Part shown: positions 17,105 through 27,208 of the stretch, in pieces
How positions within the stretch are numbered: the stretch's first letter is position 1
Layout: each line of letters opens with the position of its first letter
IMG/VR virus record: IMGVR_UViG_3300014202_000478
Span: 1-27,463 of that record
Strand: one strand, 5' to 3'
Length of the DNA stretch: 27,463 nt
Source of the DNA: a virus
Translations under genes and position numbers: made by a program
The notes under the pieces: model-generated
Told to the model about the DNA's origin: nothing
Seen by the model: only the letters and a program-made list of their open reading frames with translations
Database searches by the model: none

Positions 17105-17117
17105 ATTGCACCTGTAG

Positions 17118-17200
17118 TAGCCGAGGCGGGATTCGAACCCGCAAGCCCTAACGGGCGAGGGATTTTAAGTCCCTTGTGTATACCGTTCCACCACTCGGCC
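17118..17200 (-). tRNA. tRNA-Leu (TAA)
   Basis: GGCCGAG/CTCGGCT acceptor stem, AGGGA-CTTAAAA-TCCCT anticodon arm, long variable arm, GCGGG-TTCGAAT-CCCGC T arm. CCA not encoded. Confidence 0.95.
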
Positions 17201-18518: not shown

Positions 18519-19061
18519 ATGAAATTTTCACAATGGTTTGCTGAAATGGATCAACAACAGCCGCTACCCGACCCAAGGCAATTTTCCTATCTTGCCTGTG
18601 TCCTAGATTTGTCTAGTCAAACCCACTTGGAAGCCTTAGCAGAGAAGTGGGCTATGGAGAAAATGGGGCATAGTATTCCTCCTAACTGGCGTTGGCGTTC
18701 CCACCACATGACCGTCTTACCGCCTCGTAGCGGTGGTCTAACACTGCCAGACCTAGAACTTTATAAGCCATTCTTTGGCCAAACGGTCAAACTACATGTT
18801 ACCGCCATCGCCGCCGATGATAAATGCATGGCTGTAACCGTAAAAGCCGATCCAGCCAACTTCAAGATAGTTGCGCCAATACCTCATATAACTGTTGCAC
18901 ATAGCAATGATGTATCACCAGTTTACAGCAACAATCTATTGATGGATCGCAGTAAAATCCATGCTTTGGACACCACTGAACTTCTCTCAACATTTGTCGC
19001 TGTAAAGAGAAATCAGTCAGATGTTTGGCCTATGCCTAGATTCCAGATAGCTAAGGCTTAA
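18519..19061 (+). CDS. 2H phosphoesterase (cyclic phosphodiesterase-like)
   Basis: Two HxT motifs (HHMTV, PHITVA); N-terminus MKFSQWFAE; TATATA 7 nt upstream. Confidence 0.75.
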   Translation: MKFSQWFAEMDQQQPLPDPRQFSYLACVLDLSSQTHLEALAEKWAMEKMGHSIPPNWRWRSHHMTVLPPRSGGLTLPDLELYKPFFGQTVKLHVTAIAADDKCMAVTVKADPANFKIVAPIPHITVAHSNDVSPVYSNNLLMDRSKIHALDTTELLSTFVAVKRNQSDVWPMPRFQIAKA

Positions 19062-26474: not shown

Positions 26475-26679
26475 TTTTTATATTGTCTGGTATGTAAACA
26501 CCACTCTTCGAATGCATTGCTTTTGATCCCATCATTTTACAAATTTGTTCCCCTAATACAAAACAGGCGAACCACTCTTGACATTCGGATTCATTTTCCA
26601 AGTCGATATCGTTTATCAGTGCCCATGTAGTGAAAGTCCTCCATAACGGATGATCTGCCAGCAAATTCCTATGTGGCAT
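26404..26679 (-). CDS. Hypothetical protein
   Basis: TAATG-coupled. Confidence 0.55.
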   Translation of the reverse strand: MPHRNLLADHPLWRTFTTWALINDIDLENESECQEWFACFVLGEQICKMMGSKAMHSKSGVYIPDNIKNGGKSNHEYFNNARREKSKQLSK

Positions 26680-26915
26680 TAATAGTCCCCTATAATAGTG
26701 TCGGTCGCACTGTCATATAGGCTGACTCTACGGATAATCTTCCTACTAGGAATCTTATCCACTTTCACACCAGCCAATGCCTGTAAATCACTTCGCTCAT
26801 CAACAAACACCACAAGCATCTTATCAAATGTCTGTGCGTCATGTGGAGCGTCAACTACCTCTAAAACACAATCTGCTTGTGCCCAAAACTTCTTCAATTG
26901 GTCTATTTTGCTCAT
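26679..26915 (-). CDS. Hypothetical protein
   Basis: ATG 5 nt after a TATAAT (leaderless). Confidence 0.65.
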   Translation of the reverse strand: MSKIDQLKKFWAQADCVLEVVDAPHDAQTFDKMLVVFVDERSDLQALAGVKVDKIPSRKIIRRVSLYDSATDTIIGDY

Positions 26916-26927
26916 ATACTATTATAG

Positions 26928-27050
26928 TGGCCAAGGCTGGAATTGAACCAACTCCTACGGAACAGAGGTAAGGTGCTTACTATGATGTGGGCATTTTCAG
27001 CCTCACGACACCTTACTTTTTCCGCCGCTCTGCCGTTGAGCTACTTAGCC
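26928..27050 (-). ncRNA. tRNA-Phe-like RNA with a 52-nt-extended anticodon arm
   Basis: GGCTAAG/CTTGGCC-A acceptor, TA-GCTC-AACGGCA-GAGC D arm, GCGGA/TCCGT anticodon stem enclosing 59 nt, GTTGG-TTCAATT-CCAGC T arm. Confidence 0.8.
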
Positions 27051-27208
27051 AGCTTTGCTTTAGCTTTCTCTAATTCTTGCTCAAGTTCTCGCAAGTCTTC
27101 TGGAACGTCTTCTTCATCGTGGCAGGACCGCTCACTATCGGATTCATACCAGCCAATAACATCCTCAGCCGCCTTTAGTGCTGCTTCCAGAAGTTTGATT
27201 TTGCTCAT
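27041..27208 (-). CDS. Small coiled-coil protein (55 aa)
   Basis: Manual translation: MSKIKLLEAALKAAEDVIGWY...ELEKAKAKLAK; its TAG lies within the first 10 nt of the tRNA-like RNA. Confidence 0.6.
   Translation of the reverse strand: MSKIKLLEAALKAAEDVIGWYESDSERSCHDEEDVPEDLRELEQELEKAKAKLAK

What the first reader, a model, noticed from the sequence alone, without database searches (positions are those of the whole stretch)
26928..27050. tRNA-Phe-like RNA with anticodon loop displaced to the tip of a long extended arm
Seen: intact acceptor, D and T arms and a GCGGA/TCCGT anticodon stem enclosing 59 nt instead of 7. These 59 nt are a 20-nt insert (27020-27001), CTGAAAA (27000-26994) and a 32-nt insert (26993-26962). 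The inserts pair with each other (GTAAGGTG/CACCTTAC; GTG-A-GGC/GCC-CAC). Established: CUGAAAA is the canonical bacterial tRNA-Phe anticodon loop, and removing both inserts gives a normal GCGGA-CTGAAAA-TCCGT arm. This is not a position-37/38 intron, and it is too short for a group I intron. Inference: either a doubly interrupted tRNA needing cut-and-ligate maturation, or a non-decoding tRNA mimic (decoy for anticodon nucleases, synthetase/T-box ligand, or ribonucleoprotein scaffold).
Basis: partly seen in the sequence, partly recalled or inferred. Interest (0 to 1): 0.78.

Follow-up and report, generated by a model that had tools for sequence, protein, structure and literature searches.

The report
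Phage tRNA carrying a T-loop head
A giant uncultured phage and its relatives carry a conserved tRNA-shaped gene whose codon-reading loop is replaced by a long arm ending in a compact, unchanging RNA module. It is most likely a stable non-decoding RNA that displays a binding surface, not a phenylalanine tRNA waiting to be spliced twice.

Summary
The element is real. Window 27050-26928 (minus strand) is a tRNA body (Rfam 47.6 bits) with 59 nt in place of the 7-nt loop, at the stated coordinates. I found 11 distinct syntenic copies in related giant phages: 98% of predicted pairs hold and 13 pairs show compensatory changes, 5 of them in the extension helix. The Phe reading is weak. The C of CUGAAAA is paired in an invariant GGC/GCC helix, so the loop is UGAAA plus 2-3 nt. 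That fits the riboswitch T-loop consensus, and the invariant UCAUA-GU next to it fits the T-loop receptor consensus. Forcing an anticodon register costs 9-11 kcal/mol. The body is not Phe-specific, and a complete relative's tRNA-Phe loops read UGAAGA. No single cut gives a canonical loop, and there is no BHB or group I signature. Best reading (about 0.65): a natural tRNA scaffold displaying a T-loop/receptor head at fixed distance from a second conserved junction (CUCU-R). The partner is unknown and expression is untested. The scan has noted other phage tRNA scaffolds with unrelated inserts; this family matches no Rfam entry or paper I searched.

The parts
26928..27050 (-). Whole RNA gene, 123 nt: tRNA body with extended anticodon arm. 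CCA is not encoded; it ends A73 then CUA like most tRNA genes of this contig
   Evidence: family model 135 bits
27044..27050 (-). Acceptor stem 5' strand (pairs with 26935-26929); overlaps the last codons of the upstream 55-aa ORF, whose stop TAG is tRNA positions 8-10
27027..27041 (-). D arm with G18G19; position 20 is C or U (no Arg A20); A21 is G in 2 of 11 homologs
27021..27025 (-). Anticodon stem 5' strand GCGGA (pairs with 26961-26957); 3 of 5 pairs change on both sides among homologs
27017..27020 (-). A-rich 5' side of the proximal internal loop; starts AA in all homologs, so no Y32-U33
27009..27016 (-). Spacer helix P2 5' strand (pairs with 26975-26968); 8-9 bp, free sequence, 5 of 8 pairs with double changes, basal GU/AC invariant
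26987..27006 (-). Head hairpin: 3 bp, bulged A, invariant GGC/GCC closing the loop at 26999-26993 (UGAAA + AU; + AUU or AUG in 7 of 11): T-loop-type loop
26976..26986 (-). 3' bulge strand with invariant UCAUA-GU-A (UCAUAGU at 26985-26979): fits the 5-nt T-loop receptor consensus UNANA followed by GU
26962..26967 (-). 3' side of the proximal internal loop, invariant CUCU then purine; places U-C-U-R at the positions of 34-37 relative to the stem
26936..26952 (-). T arm, loop UUCAAUU (U55 is C in L173)
27041..27208 (-). Upstream 55-aa acidic ORF of unknown function; directly precedes the RNA in most but not all relatives
26679..26915 (-). Downstream 78-aa ORF of unknown function, used to find relatives; also present where the RNA is absent

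Best explanation
A non-decoding, unspliced phage RNA that uses a tRNA body as a chassis. Shown: tRNA body, covarying 8-9-bp spacer helix, invariant head and junction, single copy in the contig, patchy presence in the clade. Inferred step 1: tRNA maturation enzymes (RNase P, 3' trimming, CCA addition) release it from the early polycistronic transcript as a stable RNA of about 126 nt, as for engineered tRNA scaffolds. Inferred step 2: the tip loop UGAAA-NY folds as a T-loop and docks on the UCAUA-GU strand (in cis or between two copies), giving a compact head. Inferred step 3: head and CUCU-R junction, held at a fixed distance by the free-sequence helix, form a binding surface for one partner. 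The most likely partner is a protein of the host translation or tRNA-surveillance machinery that the RNA occupies as a decoy; an RNA partner is less likely. About 0.65 for non-decoding scaffold with a functional head; about 0.5 that the head is a T-loop/receptor fold; the partner is a guess.
For: 11 distinct copies, 73-99% identical, score 129-157 bits against at most 55 bits for anything else searched. 98.4% of cells paired, 13 pairs with double changes, 0/500 shuffles as high, slid controls 35-45%. The RNA is more conserved than the adjacent ORF (0.83-0.89 against 0.66-0.83). Head core 23/28 columns and ACCUCU 6/6 invariant, against 17/30 and 20/37 in the body and 1/8 in the spacer 3' strand. 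Usually invariant tRNA positions drift (A21G twice, U55C once, A15-A48 twice), as expected off the ribosome. The tip fits (YGNRA)NY and the bulge fits UNANA+GU, with a 4-bp stem followed by AC or GC as in the FMN consensus (UGAAA)UU/AC/UGAAAGU (10.1101/2022.12.26.521914); joint chance about 4e-5 from genome composition, motif chosen after the fact. Up- and downstream genes change among relatives, which argues for action in trans. Engineered precedent: PMC3753655.
Against: No expression, processing or binding data. In FMN and cobalamin riboswitches the T-loop and its receptor sit on separate hairpins; here the receptor-like strand follows the T-loop stem directly and has no closing helix of its own. 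Seven of 11 copies have an 8-nt loop, not the 7-nt consensus. The auxiliary AC/GU helix is compatible in 10 of 11 but shows no double change, and the same bases covary with the 5' strand instead. The head is invariant, so it cannot be tested by covariation. The 11 copies are about 6-7 independent lineages. An exact CUGAAAA has only about 0.9% chance in a 59-nt insert, so a Phe origin is not excluded. Relatives carry other tRNAs with single removable inserts.
Confidence: 0.65

Rival explanations
1. T-box-Stem-I-like arm: the head is a double-T-loop platform that stacks on the elbow of another tRNA, while CUC (Leu) or UCU-R (Ser) in the junction pairs with its anticodon; the RNA would bind, shield or sequester class II tRNAs. 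This is a special case of the best explanation.
For: Same order of parts as Stem I: codon-like bulge on the 3' strand, fixed-length helix, two T-loop-like strands (PMC7583486). UGAAA fits UGxRA. The contig's 18 ARAGORN tRNAs are all Leu, Ser or Tyr.
Against: No AGAGA loop, no S-turn above the putative specifier, no antiterminator; CUC lacks the 3' purine and UCU breaks the C rule; the bulge is on the opposite side; Rfam T-box does not match.
Confidence: 0.1
2. Doubly interrupted tRNA-Phe: proteins cut at 31/32 and 38/39, keep the 7-nt CUGAAAA piece and ligate twice.
For: The in-silico product is a clean tRNA-Phe in 11/11; CUGAAAA is invariant; one related phage tRNA-Phe has the same acceptor stem as L183; the complete relative encodes a T4-Rnl1-like ligase and a CCA/poly(A)-polymerase-family enzyme.
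Against: One cut site lies inside the invariant GGC/GCC helix; no bulge-helix-bulge; no tRNA splicing endonuclease or RtcB found in LR756511.1 or in this 21%-complete contig; that relative already has two plain tRNA-Phe genes with UGAAGA loops; the body is not Phe-specific; invariance of UCAUAGU is unexplained.
Confidence: 0.06
3. Single 52-55-nt intron at 31/32 leaving a tRNA-Arg(UCU), or an unspliced RNA presenting U34-C35-U36-R37 in place as an Arg-like decoy.
For: ARAGORN's call; CUCU then purine is invariant in the anticodon position; a long-arm RNA at LR756511.1 288201-288302 shares the AA..CUCU-R junction and gives a canonical UUUCUAA loop on one cut; single removable inserts exist in this clade.
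Against: No single cut gives Y-U-NNN-R-N in any of 10 copies tested: C33 always, G37 in most; no A20; the relative has two plain tRNA-Arg(UCU) genes. It may describe ancestry rather than present function.
Confidence: 0.1
4. The tip is a Phe anticodon-loop decoy for an anticodon nuclease or PheRS in the unspliced RNA.
For: Exact canonical heptamer at an exposed tip, invariant in 11/11.
Against: The anticodon register is 9-11 kcal/mol worse; loop length varies 7-8 nt; the clade's own Phe loop differs.
Confidence: 0.07
5. Decayed tRNA with a random insert, or a cis-regulatory or DNA-level element.
For: Absent from several relatives; a TATAAT overlaps its 3' end in most copies.
Against: Strong covariation and an invariant core; more conserved than the neighbouring ORF; flanking genes are exchanged.
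Confidence: 0.04

Closest known systems
'Enigmatic' tRNA introns of Lak megaphages (Devoto et al. 2019, PMC6784885)
   Same: Giant-phage tRNA genes enlarged by a conserved insert in the anticodon loop, with no Rfam match and no shown splicing.
   Different: The Lak inserts I read are single, about 80-115 nt, AT-rich, placed just 3' of an in-place anticodon. Here there is no in-place Y-U anticodon loop, no single cut restores one, and the insert is a covarying arm with an invariant head.
Engineered tRNA scaffolds (Ponchon and Dardel; PMC3753655)
   Same: Acceptor, D and T arms kept; a structured RNA is displayed in place of the anticodon loop and relies on tRNA processing for stability.
   Different: Natural, phage-encoded, under selection; cargo function unknown.
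T-loop / 5-nt T-loop-receptor module of FMN and class II cobalamin riboswitches (10.1101/2022.12.26.521914)
   Same: Terminal loop YGNRA-NY, receptor UNANA followed by GU, 4-bp stem followed by R-Y.
   Different: Here both sit on one arm of a tRNA, the receptor has no own hairpin, 7 of 11 loops have an extra base, and there is no aptamer or expression platform.
T-box Stem I and the interdigitated double T-loop of T-box, RNase P and L1 stalk (PMC7583486, PMC4810234)
   Same: Bulge, ruler helix, then two T-loop-like strands; UGxRA present.
   Different: No AGAGA, S-turn, K-turn or antiterminator; the bulge is 3' of the hairpin; the arm is mounted on a tRNA.
YrlA-type bacterial Y RNAs with Ro60 (own knowledge; TROVE in jumbo phages, PMC7824862)
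   Same: tRNA-mimic domain fused to a second structured module, found in phages.
   Different: YrlA is circularly permuted; this RNA has a normal open acceptor end; no TROVE gene found in this contig or in two large relatives.
T4 RNAC and RNAD stable RNAs (PMC9697503)
   Same: Phage small stable RNAs of unknown function; tRNA-cluster location is from my own knowledge.
   Different: No sequence relation seen; no blastn match in 50,697 phage records.

Membership tests
Elongator tRNA (RF00005) | Cloverleaf with 7-bp acceptor, D arm with G18G19, T arm | tested here: met
Elongator tRNA (RF00005) | 7-nt Y32-U33-NNN-R37 loop on the anticodon stem | tested here: not met
   59-62 nt enclosed, starting AA
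tRNA-Phe | GAA presented in a 7-nt loop closed by 31-39 | tested here: not met
   C paired in GGC/GCC; anticodon register 9-11 kcal/mol worse; 8-nt loop in 7/11
tRNA-Phe | Phe-type body | tested here: inconclusive
   Nearest bodies mix Thr, Asn, Met, Lys, Leu, Phe; U59 and A73 present, U20 in 6/11
Single-intron tRNA (Lak type or 37/38) | One excision restores a canonical loop | tested here: not met
   0 of 8 cut positions in each of 10 copies
Archaeal/eukaryal protein-spliced tRNA intron | Bulge-helix-bulge at the cuts and a splicing endonuclease | tested here: not met
   No BHB in the consensus fold; PF01974 not found in LR756511.1, G001 or G000 (G000 is 21% complete)
Group I intron | Catalytic core, 5' exon ending in U, terminal G | tested here: not met
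   52 extra nt only; no Rfam match
FMN/Cbl T-loop and receptor module | Loop (YGNRA)NY | tested here: met
   Exact in 4/11; YGNRA plus 3 nt in 7/11
FMN/Cbl T-loop and receptor module | Receptor UNANA followed by two bases pairing just 3' of the T-loop stem | tested here: inconclusive
   UCAUA-GU in 11/11; pairing possible in 10/11 but no covariation
FMN/Cbl T-loop and receptor module | Tertiary docking of loop and receptor | not testable with these tools
   Needs probing or a structure
T-box Stem I | AGAGA plus UGxRA double T-loop, S-turn above an NNC-R specifier | tested here: not met
   Only UGxRA present; no RF00230 match
YrlA Y RNA | Permuted tRNA domain and linked Ro60/TROVE gene | tested here: not met
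   Normal 5' and 3' acceptor ends; PF05731 not found in three records
Any of the above | Expression, processing, aminoacylation | not testable with these tools
   Needs RNA from infected cells

The most novel reading that the evidence does not exclude
A tRNA that binds tRNA: the arm works like a T-box Stem I mounted on a tRNA chassis, gripping the elbow of a Leu or Ser tRNA with its double T-loop and its anticodon with CUCU-R, so the phage can shield or sequester class II tRNAs in trans.
Probability: 0.1. Interest if true: 0.9.

Novelty: new variant of a known kind. Interest (0 to 1): 0.57.

Why it matters
Oversized phage tRNA genes are usually annotated as intron-containing or as pseudogenes. 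This family is a clear counter-example: covariation shows a deliberate arm, and the most conserved part is the insert, not the tRNA. It suggests that phages use tRNA bodies as natural display scaffolds and that a riboswitch-type T-loop/receptor module can be ported onto one. With 11 natural variants and several empty-site relatives, the structure and partner can be tested with a 126-nt transcript. If it binds tRNA, it would be a fourth kind of RNA elbow reader and the first to act in trans from a virus.

Tried and rejected
blastn of the gene and of the insert against 50,697 phage records: no real match. Rfam scan of the insert alone to E=10: chance hits only. Pattern scans for the body returned intron-containing Tyr-loop tRNAs, ordinary tRNAs with Asn, Lys or CUCUUAA loops, and chance hits. 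Sequencing runs: none was listed, no RNA holder listed; this is no evidence either way. Atlas searches of both flanking ORFs were uninformative. An alternative 7-bp pairing of G18-G24 with CUCURNN is possible in 10/11 but has no double change and does not beat shuffles; not used. From memory I compared the head with hammerhead, pistol, twister, hairpin, boxB, CsrA-site, K-turn, loop E and L1-site motifs and saw no full match; these are recollections, not tests. Ten literature searches found no description of this family. The host was not determined.

Full report
Observation. The minus strand at 27050-26928 holds a complete tRNA body: Rfam RF00005 scores 47.6 bits over the full model with a 59-nt insert in the anticodon arm. 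The predicted fold has the cloverleaf plus an extended arm and beats all 200 shuffles (z -3.75). ARAGORN sees nothing by default and calls it Arg(UCU) with a 52-nt intron when introns are allowed. CCA is not encoded; the gene ends A73 then CUA, like most tRNA genes of the contig.

Context. The window is the first 27 kb of a 103-kb virus contig, 21% complete by CheckV. The identical downstream protein also lies on a 623-kb contig. The region carries DNA polymerase A, Sir2, a release factor and an L7/L12 gene, and tail sheath and baseplate genes lie further on. The contig's 18 ARAGORN tRNAs are all Leu, Ser or Tyr. A complete relative, LR756511.1 (595 kb, release factor 85% identical), is syntenic, has about 60 tRNA genes elsewhere, and lacks this RNA: 1.6 kb here corresponds to 0.55 kb there. 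L179-L181 and L189 are also empty sites. The RNA is single copy in the contig.

Homologs. The two small flanking ORFs led to syntenic contigs from JGI, ENA, NCBI and Logan. They gave 11 distinct copies, 73-99% identical. A model built from eight scores the family at 129-157 bits and everything else searched at 55 or less. In the 11-row alignment 98.4% of cells pair, 13 pairs change on both sides, no shuffle reaches this, and slid controls pair at 35-45% (the first eight, aligned without a structure model, gave 96.8% and 12 pairs). Five of eight pairs of the extension helix and three of five of the anticodon stem show double changes. The RNA is more conserved than the neighbouring ORF (0.83-0.89 against 0.66-0.83). 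It is therefore selected, not decayed.

Anatomy. Conservation is inverted relative to an intron. The head (GAGGC, UGAAAAU, GCCC, UCAUAGUA) has 23 of 28 columns invariant and ACCUCU 6 of 6, while the body has 17 of 30 and 20 of 37 and the spacer 3' strand 1 of 8. Normally invariant tRNA positions drift: A21G in two copies, U55C in one, A15-A48 in two. The arm reads: anticodon stem, an A-rich/CUCU-R internal loop, an 8-9-bp helix of free sequence, an 11-nt 3' bulge, a 6-bp helix with a bulged A, and the tip loop.

Is the tip a Phe anticodon loop? Probably not. The C is paired in an invariant GGC/GCC helix; forcing the anticodon register costs 9-11 kcal/mol in all 11, and the loop is 7 nt in four copies and 8 nt in seven. 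The GCGGA..TCCGTAGG body also occurs in ordinary tRNA-Asn genes and in intron-containing genes with an in-place Tyr loop. The complete relative's two tRNA-Phe genes have UGAAGA loops. A Phe ancestry is not excluded.

What the head looks like. A study of FMN and cobalamin riboswitches gives the T-loop terminal loop as (YGNRA)NY, the 5-nt receptor as UNANA, and the common module as (UGAAA)UU/AC/UGAAAGU, with GU pairing to the two bases just 3' of the T-loop stem (10.1101/2022.12.26.521914). The window has UGAAA-AU, a 4-bp stem followed by AC, and UCAUA-GU. From genome composition the two motifs together have about 4e-5 chance, but I chose them after looking. Limits: the receptor-like strand has no hairpin of its own, seven loops carry an extra base, and the AC/GU helix is compatible in 10 of 11 without covariation. 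Docking in cis or between two molecules is inference.

Splicing options. No single cut gives a Y-U-NNN-R-N loop in any of ten copies. The best, CCUCU-R-N, has C33, mostly G37, and the body lacks A20. Still, U-C-U-R sits exactly where positions 34-37 would be, and a long-arm RNA at LR756511.1 288201-288302 shares the AA..CUCU-R junction and yields UUUCUAA on one cut, so an Arg(UCU) ancestry is as arguable as a Phe one. No BHB is present; PF01974 and TROVE were not found in three records; RtcB was found only in the distant G001; LR756511.1 has an Rnl1-like ligase and a CCA/poly(A)-polymerase-family gene. The Lak introns I read are single inserts 3' of an in-place anticodon (PMC6784885), unlike this RNA.

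Mechanism. Most likely (0.65) the gene is co-transcribed with its neighbours, matured as a tRNA, and persists as an unspliced RNA that cannot decode. This follows the principle of engineered tRNA scaffolds (PMC3753655). It presents a compact T-loop/receptor head and a conserved junction at fixed spacing to one partner, most plausibly a protein of the translation or tRNA-surveillance machinery. Flanking genes vary among relatives, which favours action in trans. The order of parts recalls T-box Stem I (PMC7583486), but AGAGA, the S-turn and a proper NNC-R specifier are missing, so this stays a 0.1 case. Structure and selection are shown; expression, processing, tertiary fold and partner are not.

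Novelty. Earlier notes of this scan describe such scaffolds on other DNA; they are leads, not support. None matches this insert by sequence. I found no Rfam family and no paper for it. I rate it a new variant of a known kind (oversized phage tRNA genes, tRNA scaffolds), interest 0.57: solid and testable, but one of many such families and without a shown function.

Noticed in passing
L179:11716-11823 (empty allele window 17117-17200); L269:158-263 (empty allele G000 31389-31473); LR756511.1 220337-220430: Related phages carry tRNA-Leu(UAA), tRNA-Leu(UAG) and tRNA-Met(CAU) genes with single 21-24-nt hairpin inserts in the anticodon loop; one cut restores a canonical loop and insert-free alleles exist. 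Better intron candidates than the finding itself.
   Followed up: partly
LR756511.1 288201-288302, 289133-289258, 291310-291437, 48527-48647: The complete relative has several other long-arm tRNA-like genes with different inserts; two share ACTTGGA..GCATACAAACA motifs, and 288201 shares the AA..CUCU-R junction of the finding.
   Followed up: partly
L005-L124: IMG/VR holds many tRNA bodies with 35-65-nt inserts, in recurring families: A-run, hairpin, ACAGCAA (e.g. L007, L018, L041, L105); GTTACTT (e.g. L009, L014, L053); and a gut-phage family (L016 and kin).
   Followed up: no
G000 17117-52131: All 18 ARAGORN tRNAs of the contig are Leu, Ser or Tyr; four Leu genes have short variable arms; none encodes CCA.
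   Followed up: partly
window 27033-27027 with 26967-26961: D-arm strand G18-G24 is complementary to CUCURNN over 7 bases in 10 of 11 copies; a possible alternative fold, without covariation support.
   Followed up: yes
window 27208-27041 and 26929-26915: The stop codon of the upstream ORF is tRNA positions 8-10, and a TATAAT or TATAT follows the discriminator in 9 of 11 copies, just before the next start codon.
   Followed up: partly
G000 51846-52045: A strongly folding non-coding stretch inside the tRNA array, with a hairpin loop UGAAAUU that also fits the T-loop consensus.
   Followed up: no
LR756511.1 271894-271967, 276441-276514, 179589-179661: Both tRNA-Phe genes have G37 (UGAAGA loops); a tRNA with anticodon CUA is also present.
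   Followed up: no
window 18519-19061 (+); L173:17344-17886, L177:17975-18535: Relatives have a weak tRNA_lig_CPD (2H phosphodiesterase) hit in the syntenic 180-aa gene, a possible RNA end-healing enzyme.
   Followed up: no
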